Made by a program: the position numbers
Source of the DNA: Negaprion brevirostris
Taxonomy: Eukaryota
Length of the DNA: 64,000 bases
Assembly: GCA_030324005.1 (NCBI GenBank)
Contig: JARDVH010000193.1
Coordinates: forward strand, 80,294,837 to 80,358,836
Direction of reading: 5' to 3'
Part shown: piece by piece, positions 6,001-12,000 of the stretch
Layout of the letters: each line of letters opens with the position of its first letter
Numbering within the stretch: the stretch's first letter is position 1

Positions 6001-9000
6001 TGAAACCACGAATGTGCATGCATGTAACTCCTGAGGTAGAGTTCTTTAGGCTAGTCAGTGAATCAACAATGGATAATTACTGGTCTTCAAGCCTTGAGGA
6101 CCATTTGTAATGATTGATGAAAAGCAGCCCCCAAAACTTCCAGTTGATCATCATTCAGGGTCTTCAGGACTCTGATGCTATCCGGTCTTCTCTGATGGTG
6201 ATCACTGAGCACTCAAAATTCACCTTCATGGTACTGTTCTTGTTCCAAGTGACACCTCCAGTGAGACTCCTTAGATCCTTGCTCATGTACGCGTCAAGAT
6301 TCAAAACAAGCTGTTGATATACCTGCAGTGGTGATGCAGCCTGCTGCAGTGTCCCCATAAATCACAGAAGCTGTGTTTAATTTCTAAAAAATCTTTACTT
6401 TTTCACAAGGCCCATTCCAACATAATGCATCAGGTCATTTTGTACTTATAAATCAGATACAAGCTTTGAATAGAATTTAATAAGAATTTGATACATTCAA
6501 GAGTCTAAAAATGAATAACTGACGTCCATGTTGGTGAAATATCTCAGGCCTCATGTCAAGGCGGTGTTTCATCACGAGGCTTTCCATTTTCATTATTTGT
6601 GGTTCAGTGCACAATCACCACCCTAAAACAGTGATTTACCAGAGGAAAATACCTGTTGATGCTGTGTCTTGGCATGCGCTAGTATATTTTATACCACTTT
6701 ACTATAACTGATGAAGGAGCAGCACTCCAAAAGCTCCAAATAAACCTGTTGGACTTTAACCTGGTGTTGTGAGACTTCTTACTTTACAATGTAACTACAA
6801 TATTGTCAATACACTTACATTTAAGTTCATCTGCTTAAAATGCCAACGGGTATCCATCAATCTCTTGGTCCATTTAATCACATTAGTGATGCCAACTGTG
6901 ATTAAATGCTTCCTGGAAGTTCCATCATCGTGTCTTAATCCCCTTCCCTGCCTCCACTCTCTTGTCACTAGTCAAACAACACACCCATTCTTGTGATGCC
7001 TTCTATGCCAATTGGAAAGCAAAGAGACTCATTACACAATTGGATGATGCACGACTGTAAGCCAAACAGCCTTTCTTCCCATTTTCAATATCTTTATATC
7101 TGGTGGATAAATGGTCAAAGAAAATGGCAAAAAAAACTTTTTTAATGACCCAGTGATTTTTCTACCAGTTTGTGCACAGCAGTATCCTGGAGATTGACCT
7201 TCAAATCTTAGAGACTCCAGACCAGTCTTGAAGGGCTGGTAACCCTGGATCACATTCACCAAGGATGCCAAGCTAAGTCAATATGGTTATATCCTCAACA
7301 AGCCTCAAAGGATTAGCTACCTGGAGATTGATGTAAGGAGTCTTTTGAGGAGCATAAATAGAGGCACCGACCAACCCACTGGCCTGCTTCTGTGAAGTAG
7401 ATGCTATGTAATACCATATAGCCAAGAATATGAATATGACATTTTTGATAACTTTTTACCAGATTCACCTGAGAAAGGCCCTTCCTCCAGACCTTTTTGT
7501 GCGTCCAGAGGAAAAATTTTACCCAGCCCAGCCCAACACTACAGGGTTGTGAATTTCAAATTAGGCTGGCATGCTGGCACAGTGCTTAGCACTGCTGCCT
7601 TGCAGCACCAGGGACTTGTGTTCAATTCCAGTCTCAGGTCAAGTCAAATCAAATCCAATTCAGAGTCCCAACAAGTTGGAACATTCCCGATCCAAGCTGA
7701 CAAGACAGGGCTCTCACCACCCATCTTGGGCTTGATCTACATGATCCAAGCTGATTGGAGTAGGTATAGCTCCTCCTCCAAGGCTTGATCTTATTTGCAT
7801 CTTAGCCAAAAGGCCGAGATACCTCTTTAAAGAATTGCTTCAAATGAAGCTAAAATGTAACCTAATCACTTCAACCAAGCGCAGCATGTCGATACTACAC
7901 TTCATCTTAGCCAAAAGGCTGAGAAGCGATTAGCACATCATTCAGTAGCCTCAATATCCATTGCAGCCAGCCAAAGCTACAGGCAATCTCAAAAGAATTA
8001 AATGCTTTTAAGTTCCTCTTTGTGTAAATATTGTGGTTAGAACAATGGGGTGGCTCAGTGCTTAAGGTTCATTCAAATATGAAGGGAAAAGTAAACAAAC
8101 ACAGCCAACTGGAGGCTGAGTGAAAATGATTAAGCTGTCAGTCAAAGGAGAGATTTTAAGGACTGGAATGAAGGTGAATGGAATCAAAGGTATATAGATG
8201 ATTTGAAGATATTTCAAATGTTCTTAGTTTTCTATGAAGCATCAGTGACTTGAAATAAATGCAGTGTTAAAACAATGGGGCTAAATGTGCCACTGTGGAG
8301 AAGTGGCAAGATCCAATCACGTGATCTTCATCCCAGGGTAGAATGGTGTGGTCAACATTTTGCCCCCAATCCAAGCCCATCAATTTCCCCCAGGACCCGA
8401 AGGGACCCATCATTTGCAGCCTGGCAGCAGCAGACAGGCACGGGACCTATACCTCCTTTTCCCTTCCCTCTTGGGGTCCAAGGCACCAGGTCAGGGCGTT
8501 AGCAAAGAATTTTGGGAGCTCTCTTTCCAAACAGATGGAAATTTTCTAAATGGGAAAGAACAAATAGGAAGGTCTGTGTTTGGGCAGAGGGCAAGAGTGA
8601 TTCAATGACTTATGGAAATACTTCCCCATTTCGTTCCGAATCCATCTGATCAGCACAATTATCAATACAATTAGCAAACAATTCTTTATTGAGGCTTTTT
8701 AATGATTGTGAAGAATAAATTTTCCCTAAAATTTCACTCACTCATACGTTAATTTGAACATTTATAATTCCATAACTTTTATACATGGTGATACTTTACA
8801 TGATTATTTTGTTGTTAGTCATTGAATGGTTTCAAGAAGGAGATAGATATATTTCTATTAAAAAAAGGGATAAGGGGATATGGGGGATAGGTGGGGAGGT
8901 GGATTTGAGACCAGGCAGAGATCAGCCATGATCTGATCGAGTAGCTGAGCAGGGTCCAAGGGCCAAATTTAGGTACTTCTGCTGCTAATTCCTATGTTCC

Positions 9001-12000
9001 TAATTTCTTAGCCACAGTTGGTTATAAACAATTTCTTGTATGAGAGCATGGACACAACCTAATCCTGAGGTTCTACTCTCTCATTGTGTGATCAGGCATT
9101 AGGAGACAAATGGGAGGCACCTATATTTATCAGACTGAATTTCATTGTTTCTCATTTACAGGGACGCAATGGTGTGGTGTTTTTTTGTCACTAGATGAGT
9201 AATTCAGAGACCCAGGGTAATGGACTAGGGACCCATGTTCAAAACCACAATGGTCATGGTGAATTTGTATTCAATAAAAATCTGGAATGGAAAGTCCAAT
9301 GATGACCATGAAACCGTTGTGGTAAAACCCCAGCTGGTTTTCTAATGTAATTTAGGGAAGAAAACCTTCCAGCCTTACCTGGTCTTGACTGCATGTGGCT
9401 CCAGATCCACAGCAATGTTGTTGACTCTTAAATACCCTCTGGAATGGGTGAACCAACCACTCAATTGATGGGCAATAAATGTTGGTTCAGCCAGTAATGC
9501 CCATTTTCCCCAAATATACTTTAAAATAAATTGCAGCATCCATAGTACAAATCCACTTTGAAATATTTTCAGATTAGCACACAGTGCATGACTGAGTCAA
9601 TGCCCGTCCCAACCCTTATAAAACTATGACTTCGAAAGTTAGCACTTGCAAATAAAATAAGACACACTGAGGCTAGGAATTATTGAAATTACACCTTGCA
9701 ATATAAACTAATTCAGCTATATAAAAATATCAACACAAGATGTATCCAGAATAAAATCAACTCATGTTTCCAAGTTTACATTGATCATTAGTACAGACAT
9801 GATGGGCCAAAAGATCTGTCATTCATTCCATGATCGTAAATCAGGGTCAGAGTTCAGGGTCTGTATTTGGGCAACTTTTCTATTTCCAGTCACCTGATGT
9901 GGATTTAGTTCTTCAATATCTAACAAGAGACAAAAATTCATGTGAAATAAAATCCTTCAGGAACAAATATTGGATTTAAGTGATGGATAAAGTTGAAATT
10001 GAATAAAGACATTTTTACAAAATGGGCACAGTAACTGAACTTGACCGACAGAAAACTGATTCATCGTTAATGAGATCATTTCAACAGATAAAGGGTCTGT
10101 ACTTTCCCAGGTCTGAAGAGGTGGATTTGGAATAAGTTCAGCAAGGAAAAATGATTCATTCACAAAAACACGTTTGCCGGAATTCTCATGTCCCACACAC
10201 CCTGTTACCACTGCCAGCACAAATGGAGAACTTAGCGCTCAGTCTTATCCTGATTCAGCAGCAGAACAAGAGAATCCCAGCCACGGGTGAGGTTGGAGAA
10301 ACCGGCCCTTTATATTTTAAATATCCGACTCCAAACTCTTCCCATCTCTTCAGTGAAGATTATTTATGTTGTGCTTGTGCTATTTCTGCATAGATGACAG
10401 ATGAAGCATCTTCTTTTAAAGGAACCATTTCCTGTAAGAGAGACATTAACTTAAAATAATGGAATTGATTATTGCATCTTATTACATCAGACAATTTTTC
10501 AAATGTTTCAGACATTGATGTTATGGGTGTGATTTCACAACTAGAAATCAAGATACTTACAATATCTGAAGATTGTTTGTTATACTGTCTACTGTCTGCC
10601 TGTCGACTTCCTGTGATAATCAAAAGTATCAAAATTAAAAATAATATTGACTGAAAAATATGACAATTAGCATAATAACATCCTCAACTGACTGCATTCA
10701 CTAATACAGCCAATGGATCAGCATGACATTGATGAACAGTGAAGACAGGTTTGATTTGGAGGACTCACATGCATAATAAGCACAGCATTTACACAATGGG
10801 CCACAAGGAACATCATAGATTAACCAAGACCATTCCACTTTTGTTGGGAGATTGCATGAGCCAGTGGTGGCTCACTCAGGATGCTGCTGAAAGTGGGTGT
10901 TTTGTATGAATTGTTGGAAGAAAGTGAATCTGGAGGTAGTGGGAGCTGCTCCTTCAGCCTTATTTCCTCTGAATCAACTCGGGCACAATAAAAGGAATGA
11001 AAATCAAGTGTCAAAGATTGCCACCCCTTTCCCCATCATGAATGCCAAGTAACAGGTGTCACCTACATCCCCAGAGGAAACTTAACTTTACTAAGATCAA
11101 TTTGGGATGAATCTTCATAGTGTCTTTACATCTTTATGACATGCAAAGGAAATTAATACTTTTAAAGTTTAATCCCTGTGCGAGTAACATNNNNNNNNNN
11201 NNNNNNNNNNNNNNNNNNNNNNNNNNNNNNNNNNNNNNNNNNNNNNNNNNNNNNNNNNNNNNNNNNNNNNNNNNNNNNNNNNNNNNNNNNAATTGCTTCA
11301 AATGAAGCTGAAATGTAACCTAATGACTTCAACCAAGTGCAGCATGTCGATACTACACTTGATCTTAAACAAAAGGCTGAGAAGTGCCAAGCAATTTCAT
11401 GGTAAGCAAGTCTGGTAAATTTTCCAGAATCAGGTCACTGTCTGTGTGGAATTTGCACATTCTCCCCATGTCCGCATGGGTTTCCTCCAGGTGCTCAGGT
11501 TCCCTCCCACAGTCCAAAGGTGTGCAGGTTAGGTTGATTGGCCATGCTAAATTGCCTCTTTGTGTGAGGGAGACTAGCAGGATAAATAATTGGGGTCATG
11601 GGGATAGGGCTTGGGCGGGATTGTTGGCAGGGCAAACTTGATCCCTCCCTTTGCAGTGTAGGGATTCCAAAATTTTTACCAATTTTTATACATGCACCAT
11701 AGAAAGCATCCTTTCTGGATGTATCACAGCTTGGGGTGGCTTCTGCTGTGACCAAGACTGCAAGAAATTACAAAGTGTTGTGAGCTTAGCCCAGTCCTTC
11801 ATGCAAACCAGCCTCCCATCAATGCCTCTGTCTATGCTTCCCACTACTTTGGAAAAGCAACCAGCAGGATACTAGCAGGGTAGAATCATTGAAGTGCGGA
11901 AAGAGGCAATTTGGCCCATTGAGTCTGCACTGACAACAATTCCACCCAGGCCCTATCCCTGTACTACACATATTTACCCTGCTAGTTCCCCTGACACTAA

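What the first reader, a model, noticed from the sequence alone, without database searches (positions are those of the whole stretch)
7634..11437. V-SINE split by a 3.8-kb block with an 8-bp duplication and a U2-element at each end
Seen: a V-SINE head stops at TCAGGTCA (7634-7641) and resumes at TCAGGTCA (11430-11437), the pattern of a target-site duplication. Between them lie U2-element copy 1, ~3.2 kb of genomic-looking DNA (CR1/SINE fragments, intron-separated exons), a 100-N gap, and U2-element copy 2 in the same orientation. Inference (a): a composite insertion or recombination in which U2-elements moved genomic DNA. Inference (b), which I think at least as likely: one U2-element inserted into the SINE, and the assembler jumped through it into another locus. 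Either way the duplication indicates that the U2-element retrotransposed after this SINE copy.
[Added by the scan's program, not by the reader: the finding's places include an assembly gap (unread letters, written N; its length is only estimated) at 11191 to 11290. Whether the letters on both sides are continuous or in frame is not known: test that first.]
Basis: partly seen in the sequence, partly recalled or inferred. Interest (0 to 1): 0.65.

Follow-up and report, generated by a model that had tools for sequence, protein, structure and literature searches.

The report
U2-headed retroposon inside an older SINE
A short mobile element whose front end is copied from U2 spliceosomal RNA jumped into an older repeat and duplicated 8 bases, while the 3.3 kb of DNA that seems to ride with it is more likely an assembly error than real cargo.

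Summary
The core observation holds. One V-SINE-type repeat is cut at a single position. The octamer TCAGGTCA (7634-7641, 11430-11437) sits on the same repeat columns in both halves, so it is a true 8-bp target-site duplication.

The inserted element lies on the minus strand. It is not a U2 gene or pseudogene. Only U2 nt 1-40 match (7891-7930), followed by a 71-nt linker, a second U2 piece (nt 7-26, 7800-7819), a non-U2 body and a pentamer-repeat tail with no polyA. This resembles the crocodilian SINEU elements, which carry U1/U2 heads, repeated 5' additions and short 5' extensions.

Copy 2 (11291-11388) is partial, 93.6% identical over 94 nt, and starts mid-element at the gap edge. It is separated from the right duplication by 41-45 copy-specific bp, so it is not strictly "at the end".

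The 100-N gap is a placeholder. Its two sides are not continuous.

The window cannot decide whether the 3.26-kb block is real. I favour one ~330-bp insertion plus a repeat-induced misjoin (about 0.55) over a real 3.8-kb composite retrotransposition (about 0.3).

The exon and CR1 claims were not supported. Interest is moderate: a possible SINEU-like family outside crocodilians, seen here in only two copies.

The parts
7566..7641 (+). 5' part of the split V-SINE-type repeat (the name V-SINE is recalled, not tested)
   Evidence: Matches other window copies at 77-89% identity. Aligned with 4 other copies.
7634..7641 (.). Left copy of the 8-bp target-site duplication TCAGGTCA
7642..7930 (-). U2-headed retroposon, copy 1 (289 nt from 3' tail to U2 nt 1)
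   Evidence: Rfam U2 hit at 47 bits. BLAST finds only one further copy in the window.
7891..7930 (-). Head: U2 snRNA model positions 1-40
   Evidence: cmscan alignment. The match stops after model position 40.
7820..7890 (-). Non-U2 linker, shared with copy 2 as far as copy 2 is assembled. Its start can pair with U2 nt 29-39 of the head.
   Evidence: shared sequence; fold.
7800..7819 (-). Second, internal U2-derived piece (model positions 7-26, 20 of 20 identical)
   Evidence: 19.5 bits, E 0.048 in a 249-nt search. Also.
7642..7661 (-). 3' tail with a 5-nt periodicity and no polyA. Plus strand reads AGTCA AATCA AATCC AATTC, preceded by GGTCA of the duplication.
   Evidence: Read directly.
7931..11190 (.). 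3260-bp block, mostly unique in the window. Either cargo of a composite insertion or the flank of another element copy brought in by a misjoin.
11191..11290 (.). 100-N assembly gap of placeholder length. Its flanks are not continuous.
11291..11388 (-). U2-headed retroposon, copy 2: a partial copy (57 nt of the linker plus the U2 head) that starts at the gap edge
   Evidence: 93.6% identity over 94 nt to 7833-7926. Rfam U2 26.9 bits.
11389..11429 (-). Copy-specific 5' stretch between the U2 5' end and the right duplication. It is 41 bp, or 45 bp if counted from 11385 where BLAST identity ends.
   Evidence: No match to copy 1's flank, the element or the gap edge. No other match in the window.
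11430..11437 (.). Right copy of the 8-bp target-site duplication TCAGGTCA
11438..11640 (+). 3' part of the split V-SINE-type repeat
   Evidence: Matches 7 other loci in the window. Aligned.

Best explanation
WHAT HAPPENED
A short, non-coding, LINE-dependent retroposon inserted once, in minus orientation, into an older V-SINE-type repeat. Its 5' end is copied from U2 snRNA nt 1-40, so it is SINEU-like.

INFERRED MECHANISM: TARGET-PRIMED REVERSE TRANSCRIPTION
- The plus strand of the SINE was nicked after ...GGTCA (7641).
- That 3' end can pair with the terminal pentamer of the element RNA (UGACU, counting one G-U pair).
- cDNA synthesis then ran from the pentamer-repeat tail to the U2 head and on through a copy-specific 5' extension of 41-45 nt.
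- A second nick 8 bp away produced the TCAGGTCA duplication.

SIZE OF THE INSERTION
On this reading the true insertion is about 330 bp: 7642-7832 plus 11291-11429.

THE 3.26-KB BLOCK
The block 7931-11190 would be the 5' flank of a different copy of the same family. It entered because the short-read assembly crossed from one copy to the other inside the element. The next contig was then joined on by a placeholder gap.

SHOWN VERSUS INFERRED
- Shown: the duplication, the element's anatomy, the two distinct copies, and the discontinuity at the gap.
- Inferred: the retrotransposition mechanism, the misjoin, and the origin of the head.

ORIGIN OF THE HEAD (INFERRED)
The head may come from a transcript that started in a U2 gene and ran into a resident U2-targeting LINE. 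The head ends within 2 nt of the site used by Keno and Utopia.
For: THE DUPLICATION
- Both octamers fall on the same 8 columns of the repeat alignment.
- The flanks outside them differ.

ELEMENT ANATOMY
- U2 model nt 1-40 match in both copies, with the same junction to the same linker.
- A second U2 piece matches model nt 7-26 at 20 of 20 positions.
- The U2 stem-loop motif occurs 4 times in the window against 0.20 expected (0 of 100 shuffles reach 4). Three of the four lie in the two copies.
- Homology between the copies stops at the U2 5' end. For the flanks beyond it, 534 of 2000 shuffles score as well. The U2 5' end is therefore the family boundary, and the 41-45 bp are copy-specific.

PRECEDENT
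Kojima 2015 (Results and Discussion read) describes the following in crocodilian SINEU:
- U2 heads.
- Recurrent 5' addition of U1/U2 pieces.
- Partial duplications inside those pieces.
- 5' extensions of 31 and 42 nt.
- Roughly 10-bp target duplications.
Kojima and Jurka 2015 (section 6 and passages read) state that Utopia and Keno share one U2 site and that the downstream U2 flank starts at nt 39.

THE MISJOIN
- The window has 20 gaps in 64 kb.
- 8 of the 20 gaps are exactly 100 N.
- At 2 of those 8, the last 14 or 42 bases before the gap recur as the first bases after it. This is seen at 0 of the 12 other gaps. The 100 N therefore carries no distance information.
- Copy 2 starts mid-element exactly at the gap edge, 19 nt before its first difference from copy 1.
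- The left gap edge is not element-like.
- A simple 330-bp insertion with a short 5' extension needs no unusual biology.
Against: - Nothing in the window shows that contig 4087-11190 is chimeric. It runs without a break from the SINE through a complete element into the block.
- A short-read assembler often turns the second copy of a nearby repeat into a gap. That is what the composite model predicts for copy 2's missing 191 nt.
- A misjoin needs an exact shared stretch between two copies that differ at 6 of 94 compared positions. The longest exact run in that compared part is 22 nt.
- A misjoin also needs a scaffolder that placed the next contig 3.3 kb away from its true neighbour.
- The family rests on two copies only. 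No eukaryotic genome collection or repeat library was available, so copy number, consensus and partner LINE are unknown.
- The tail is not polyA, unlike every SINEU family.
- The tail on its own does not fold better than shuffles (z -1.11, 35 of 200 shuffles fold as well).
Confidence: 0.55

Rival explanations
1. The block is real. One RNA of 3.8 kb or more was retrotransposed into the SINE and made the single 8-bp duplication. There are two possible routes.
- A transcript started 41-45 nt upstream of copy 2 at a source locus, failed to stop at copy 2's tail, read through 3.26 kb and ended at the tail of copy 1 (5' transduction).
- The reverse transcriptase jumped from the 5' end of one element RNA to another RNA and then to a second element RNA.
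For: - The element tail abuts the left duplication, and the only sequence abutting the right duplication lies beyond a second copy in the same orientation.
- Contig 4087-11190 is unbroken through copy 1 and into the block.
- Copy 2's missing 191 nt replaced by a gap is the usual fate of a second nearby repeat copy.
- Copy 1 ends exactly at U2 nt 1, as expected for an ordinary copy at a source locus or for a template jump at an RNA 5' end.
- Kojima 2015 argues that SINEU lacks an internal promoter and is transcribed from flanking sequence, and cites SVA 5' transduction and template jumps.
- GC content of the block (0.387) is like that of the flanks (0.406, 0.407).
Against: - The 5' extensions reported for SINEU are 31 and 42 nt, not kilobases.
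- The gap would have to hide at least 191 bp of copy 2, yet the left gap edge shows no trace of the element tail.
- The minus-sense block contains one AATAAA, two ATTAAA and 29 runs of four or more T. Only an unprocessed Pol II transcript could cross it.
- The scaffold is demonstrably loose at 100-N joins.
Confidence: 0.3
2. The two SINE halves come from two different V-SINE copies at two loci. Each was hit at the same position by the U2-headed element because the element, like SINEU in Mariner-N4_AMi, prefers a specific site in a specific repeat. The matching octamers would then reflect target preference, and the scaffold joins unrelated loci.
For: - SINEU and its Tx1 partners insert preferentially at fixed positions of one repeat family. 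For SINEU-3, 313 of 347 insertions are flanked by that repeat.
- The join across 11191-11290 carries no distance information.
Against: - The two octamers are identical at 8 of 8 positions, while 0 of 4 other aligned V-SINE copies carry that exact octamer.
- V-SINE copies differ from one another by 11-23%.
- None of the other V-SINE copies in the window (7 loci matching the right half) carries the element.
- This model still needs the same contig chimera as the main explanation.
Confidence: 0.07
3. The whole 3.8-kb stretch is a DNA transposon of the hAT kind, which makes 8-bp duplications.
For: Only the 8-bp length of the duplication. That hAT elements make 8-bp duplications is recalled knowledge.
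Against: - There are no terminal inverted repeats at 7642 and 11429. The inverted-repeat search of 7400-11800 returned 3 internal pairs and none at the termini.
- No transposase or any other Pfam family was found in the block's ORFs.
- The left terminus is the 3' tail of a retroposon-like element in the orientation expected for reverse transcription priming.
Confidence: 0.02

Closest known systems
SINEU (SINEU-1, -2, -3) of crocodilians, Kojima 2015 (PMC4494074)
   Same: - A short non-coding retroposon whose 5' end is a short piece of U2 snRNA.
- A further U2 piece inside, consistent with recurrent 5' additions.
- A small duplication within the U2-derived part.
- Runs of T inside that argue against Pol III transcription.
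- A copy-specific 5' extension of about 40 nt.
- A short target-site duplication.
   Different: - The tail is a 5-nt periodic repeat, not polyA.
- The host is not a crocodilian. Its repeat content looks like that of a cartilaginous fish (recalled).
- Sequence similarity to SINEU consensus sequences could not be tested.
- Only two copies were seen.
- There is no sign of a preference for a Mariner target.
U2-gene-targeting LINEs Keno (Tx1 clade) and Utopia (NeSL clade), Kojima and Jurka 2015 (PMC4640811)
   Same: The U2 head of the element ends at model nt 40. This is within 2 nt of the shared Keno/Utopia insertion site, where the downstream U2 flank starts at nt 39. It is what a transcript starting in a U2 gene and running into a resident LINE would carry.
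   Different: - The element has no ORF and no reverse transcriptase.
- It sits in a SINE, not in a U2 gene.
- The element-sense sequence at the insertion site does not resemble the U2 target motifs quoted (compared by eye).
- No LINE sharing its linker or tail is present in the window.
Chimeric snRNA-LINE/Alu retrocopies made by template switching, and tailless snRNA retropseudogenes in mammals (as summarised in Kojima 2015)
   Same: An snRNA-derived 5' part is fused to unrelated sequence and flanked by a target duplication.
   Different: Those are one-off products. Here two copies, 93.6% alike, share the same U2/linker junction. The fusion was therefore propagated as a unit.
5' transduction by SVA and L1 (cited in Kojima 2015)
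   Same: If the block is real, upstream genomic DNA was carried along because transcription began upstream of the element.
   Different: The event here is unproven. It would carry 3.3 kb bounded by a second element copy.

Membership tests
SINEU (snRNA-headed SINEs) | 5' region derived from a U1 or U2 snRNA gene | tested here: met
   Rfam U2 hit at 47 bits against a gathering score of 46. Model nt 1-40 are aligned in both copies.
SINEU (snRNA-headed SINEs) | Short (under 500 bp) non-coding retroposon flanked by a target-site duplication | tested here: met
   289 nt, or about 330 nt with the 5' stretch. The ORF at 7745-7930 has no Pfam family. The 8-bp duplication is shown.
SINEU (snRNA-headed SINEs) | 3' polyA tail (stated for all SINEU groups) | tested here: not met
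   The element ends in 5-nt periodic repeats with no A run. The feature is stated.
SINEU (snRNA-headed SINEs) | Multi-copy family sharing one structure, not independent chimeras | tested here: inconclusive
   Two copies share the junction at 93.6% identity. No eukaryotic genome collection was available for a census.
SINEU (snRNA-headed SINEs) | Sequence relationship to the SINEU-1/2/3 consensus sequences, and mobilisation by Tx1-Mar LINEs | not testable with these tools
   No Repbase or Dfam library was available. There is no Tx1-like ORF near the element. The only reverse-transcriptase traces are weak RVT_1 hits at 3294-3596 and 62313-62633.
Functional U2 snRNA gene or full-length U2 pseudogene | Match along the whole U2 RNA, including the Sm site and 3' stem-loops | tested here: not met
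   With the first 40 nt removed, only a 20-nt piece (model nt 7-26) matches, at 19.5 bits. Nothing matches the 3' half.
V-SINE superfamily (label given to the split repeat) | tRNA-derived head | tested here: inconclusive
   ARAGORN finds 0 tRNA-like genes in the window. Rfam at E up to 1 gives no tRNA hit in 7400-11800. Diverged SINE heads often escape both tools.
V-SINE superfamily (label given to the split repeat) | Conserved central V domain | not testable with these tools
   No reference sequence was available, so the resemblance is recalled only. What was tested is that this is a multi-copy repeat: 7 other loci match the right half.
hAT DNA transposon | Terminal inverted repeats at the ends of the inserted unit | tested here: not met
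   No inverted pair lies at 7642 and 11429.

The most novel reading that the evidence does not exclude
The 3.8-kb unit is real. A family of U2-headed retroposons has no promoter of its own. It was born from transcripts that began in U2 genes and ran into a U2-targeting LINE. This family exists in a cartilaginous-fish-like genome, far from the crocodilians where such elements are known. In this case two copies of it bracketed 3.3 kb of ordinary genomic DNA and moved it as one retrotransposed RNA.
Probability: 0.25. Interest if true: 0.65.

Novelty: new variant of a known kind. Interest (0 to 1): 0.4.

Why it matters
snRNA-headed SINEs have been described only from crocodilians. This rests on Kojima 2015, read, and on passages of two later papers that still cite only that case. 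How these elements are transcribed is an open question.

An independent family in a distant vertebrate would give a second system in which to test the co-transcription origin. This one has a different kind of tail, and its head stops at the site used by U2-targeting LINEs.

If the block proved real, it would also be an example of kilobase-scale 5' transduction by a SINE-like element. If it proves to be a misjoin, the practical value is a flagged assembly error and a reminder that 100-N joins in this scaffold carry no distance information.

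Tried and rejected
- Other copies of the element in the window. BLAST with word size 7 found none beyond the two. 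A 17-nt motif search with 3 mismatches gave one extra hit at 34336-34352, which I take as chance.
- Homology beyond the U2 5' end between the two copies. Not significant (534 and 569 of 2000 shuffles).
- A trace of copy 2's tail, or of a duplication of the 45-bp stretch, at the left gap edge. Not significant (1343 and 588 of 2000 shuffles).
- The 45-bp stretch against the element itself, in both orientations. Not significant (1525 and 582 of 2000 shuffles).
- Gene continuity across the block as a test of whether it belongs to this locus. A Pfam scan of 99 ORFs in 1-24000 and 141 ORFs in 24000-64000, all stop-to-stop and at least 60 aa, found nothing in or next to the block. Shorter exons were not scanned.
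- The exon-like pair. It was searched only as the unspliced window ORF 10363-10683 on the minus strand. There were 7 near-length candidates and 215 longer ones, and none scored at E 0.01 or better. The two pieces were not joined into a spliced model, and each alone is too short to search.
- A structured 3' tail. Not supported (z -1.11). The whole element folds better than shuffles (z -3.96, 0 of 200), but a single sequence proves little.
- hAT-type DNA transposition. Rejected for lack of terminal inverted repeats.
- A tandem-repeat scan found nothing in the element.
- Not used or not available:
  - The genome-contig collection holds only bacteria and archaea, so it was not used.
  - No repeat library was available.
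  - The supplementary figures of Kojima 2015 (S1-S6) and of the Utopia paper were not seen. They may bear on the 5' extensions, junctions and target duplications.

Full report
THE OBSERVATION

The window is a fragmented scaffold with 20 N runs in 64 kb. Nothing in it suggests human origin. Its repeat content looks like that of a cartilaginous fish, but that is recalled and was not tested.

That name could not be tested here: there is no reference library, ARAGORN finds no tRNA-like head, and Rfam finds none.

The repeat stops at 7641 and resumes at 11430, running to about 11640. The left part matches 4 other places in the window and the right part 7, at 77-89% identity.

I aligned both halves with four other copies.
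- The left half ends and the right half begins on the same eight columns.
- TCAGGTCA is therefore present twice where an intact copy has it once.
- None of the four other copies has this exact octamer.
- The bases just outside the octamers differ.
- In the whole window the octamer occurs only at 6430, 7634 and 11430 on the plus strand and once on the minus strand.

This is a genuine 8-bp target-site duplication inside one repeat copy, not a chance match.

THE GAP

- The right edge (11291) lies in the middle of the U2-bearing element, at the equivalent of 7833 in copy 1.
- The left edge (to 11190) shows no similarity to the part of the element that should precede it (1343 of 2000 shuffles score as well).
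- The two sides are therefore not continuous.
- If copy 2 is complete, at least 191 bp are missing, which is more than the nominal 100 N.
- No reading frame is at stake.

The length 100 is a placeholder.
- 8 of the 20 gaps are exactly 100 N.
- At two of these eight (13224 and 44060), the last 14 or 42 bases before the gap recur as the first bases after it.
- None of the 12 other gaps shows this.
- These joins therefore carry no distance information.

I did not fill any gap.

THE ELEMENT

Rfam reports U2 at 7732-7930 on the minus strand, just above threshold (47 against 46 bits). The alignment shows that only model positions 1-40 truly match (7930 down to 7891).

With those 40 nt removed, the only remaining U2 signal is a perfect 20-nt copy of model positions 7-26 at 7819-7800.

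Read on the minus strand, the element has these parts.
- U2 nt 1-40.
- A 71-nt linker.
- A second U2 piece, followed by a short re-duplication of the adjacent U2 letters.
- About 140 nt of non-U2 body.
- A tail with 5-nt periodicity and no polyA.

It has no ORF with a Pfam family. It contains three runs of TTTT in the sense strand.

Copy 2 (11291-11388, minus strand) shares the head, the same head/linker junction and 57 nt of the linker. Identity is 93.6% over 94 nt, with 6 differences and a longest exact run of 22.

Each copy has its own departures from the Rfam U2 consensus, so these are two separate copies of one family and not one copy assembled twice.

Homology between them ends at the U2 5' end (534 of 2000 shuffles for the flanks). 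That end is therefore the family's 5' boundary.

The 41-45 bp between it and the right octamer (11385/11389-11429) are specific to copy 2. They match nothing in the window.

HOW IT MOST LIKELY WORKS

The element tail abuts the left octamer in the orientation expected for target-primed reverse transcription.

On the plus strand, the last five bases of the target (GGTCA) are followed by AGTCA, AATCA, AATCC and AATTC. The nicked target end could therefore pair with the terminal pentamer of the element RNA, counting one G-U pair. This fits priming by microhomology. It is an inference from the letters, not a test.

A second nick 8 bp away would give the duplication.

The element is younger than its host repeat. 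It interrupts the repeat, and its two copies are much more alike than V-SINE copies are to each other.

COMPARISON WITH KNOWN SYSTEMS

The closest described system is SINEU (Kojima 2015, PMC4494074; abstract, Results and Discussion read). Its features are:
- short retroposons with U1 or U2 heads;
- recurrent addition of further U1/U2 pieces at the 5' end;
- partial duplications inside those pieces;
- internal T runs that argue against Pol III;
- copy-group-specific 5' extensions of 31 and 42 nt;
- occasional target duplications of about 10 bp;
- probable transcription from flanking promoters.

The element here shares all of these features. It fails one stated feature: all SINEU groups end in polyA, and this element does not. 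Its relationship in sequence could not be tested. I therefore call it SINEU-like and not a member.

The head ends at U2 nt 40. Kojima and Jurka 2015 (PMC4640811; passages and section 6 read) state three things.
- The two U2-targeting LINE lineages, Utopia and Keno, use the same site.
- The downstream U2 flank starts at nt 39.
- The 5' junctions vary.

A head ending within 2 nt of that site is what a transcript starting at a U2 promoter and running into a resident LINE would carry. This is my proposed origin of the head. Template switching onto U2 RNA is the alternative.

No partner LINE is visible in the window.

IS THE 3.26-KB BLOCK REAL?

Both models predict exactly the letters seen. The deciding question is whether contig 4087-11190 is chimeric somewhere in 7642-7930.

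For a misjoin:
- A simple 330-bp insertion with a roughly 40-nt 5' extension has direct precedent.
- Kilobase 5' transduction by such elements has none in what I read.
- The scaffold is loose at 100-N joins.
- Copy 2 begins at the gap 19 nt before its first difference from copy 1.
- The left gap edge has no trace of a tail.

For a real composite:
- The contig is unbroken through copy 1.
- Turning the second nearby repeat copy into a gap is ordinary assembler behaviour.
- A misjoin needs both a crossover between copies that differ by 6% and a tolerant scaffolder.

Weighing rare biology against a fairly uncommon assembly error, I put the misjoin near 0.55 and the composite near 0.3.

The remainder goes mainly to a target-preference model, in which the two halves come from different V-SINE copies. 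The 8 of 8 identity of the octamers argues against that model.

A hAT-type DNA transposon is rejected, because no terminal inverted repeats are present.

CONTENT OF THE BLOCK

- Only 411 of 3260 bases match a repeat elsewhere in the window. None could be named, so 'CR1' is unsupported.
- Two exon-like stretches with AG and GT borders lie on the minus strand (10610-10561 and 10431-10360).
- The ORF holding both has no Pfam family and no homologue among near-length or longer proteins.
Each alone is too short to search. The exon claim stays open.

PRIOR REPORTS

- The search 'SINEU' plus 'shark' returned 14 papers. In the 10 listed, neither term appears in a title or abstract (listing only).
- Searches for snRNA-derived SINEs and passages of two later papers mention only the crocodilian case.
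- I found no report of a U2-headed retroposon in cartilaginous fishes in these searches. Repbase entries and subscription journals were not searchable.

VERDICT

- The duplication and the nested insertion are real and ordinary.
- The inserted element is the interesting part: a SINEU-like retroposon with a non-polyA tail in a new host group, known here from only two copies.
- The block is probably an assembly artefact, and that is unproven.

Noticed in passing
window 35228-35422, 51447-51650, 63050-63334 (+): Three ORFs match the Pfam Cullin family at successive profile positions (27-62, 109-162, 292-377). Two are above the curated cut-off (45.6 and 56.9 bits against 33.2). A cullin gene therefore runs on the plus strand through the right half of the window. 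The finding lies at least 24 kb upstream of its first detected exon.
   Followed up: no
window 13210-13223 / 13324-13337 and 44018-44059 / 44160-44201: At two 100-N gaps the bases just before the gap recur exactly just after it (14 and 42 nt). These joins link overlapping contig ends, so the N length is a placeholder.
   Followed up: partly
window 10610-10561 and 10431-10360 (-): Two short exon-like stretches with AG/GT borders are separated by 129 nt. The second ends in a stop codon and contains a V-I-Y-A-E-I stretch that resembles an ITIM-type tyrosine motif (the motif is recalled). No homologue or Pfam family was found.
   Followed up: partly
window 7793-7800 (-): The letters ATGCAAAT lie inside the element, at the end of the second U2 piece. 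From memory, this is the octamer motif of snRNA gene enhancers. It may be chance, and it lies downstream of the element's 5' end.
   Followed up: no
window 7877-7902 (-): The first 11-14 nt of the linker can pair with U2 nt 29-39 of the head, forming a hairpin with several G-U pairs right at the head/linker junction. Copy 2 keeps the same arrangement. Its meaning is unknown.
   Followed up: no
window 3294-3596 (+) and 62313-62633 (-): Weak reverse-transcriptase (RVT_1) matches, both below the curated cut-off (21.3 and 16.8 bits against 29.6). They are probably decayed LINE fragments, and neither resembles the element's tail.
   Followed up: no
window 26480-26673 (+): Another V-SINE-type copy runs straight into the 100-N gap at 26674. 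This shows that contigs in this scaffold do break inside repeats.
   Followed up: no
window 9185-9526: An unnamed interspersed repeat inside the block has diverged copies (69-79% identity) at 12238-12372, 21730-22043 and 2003-2062.
   Followed up: no
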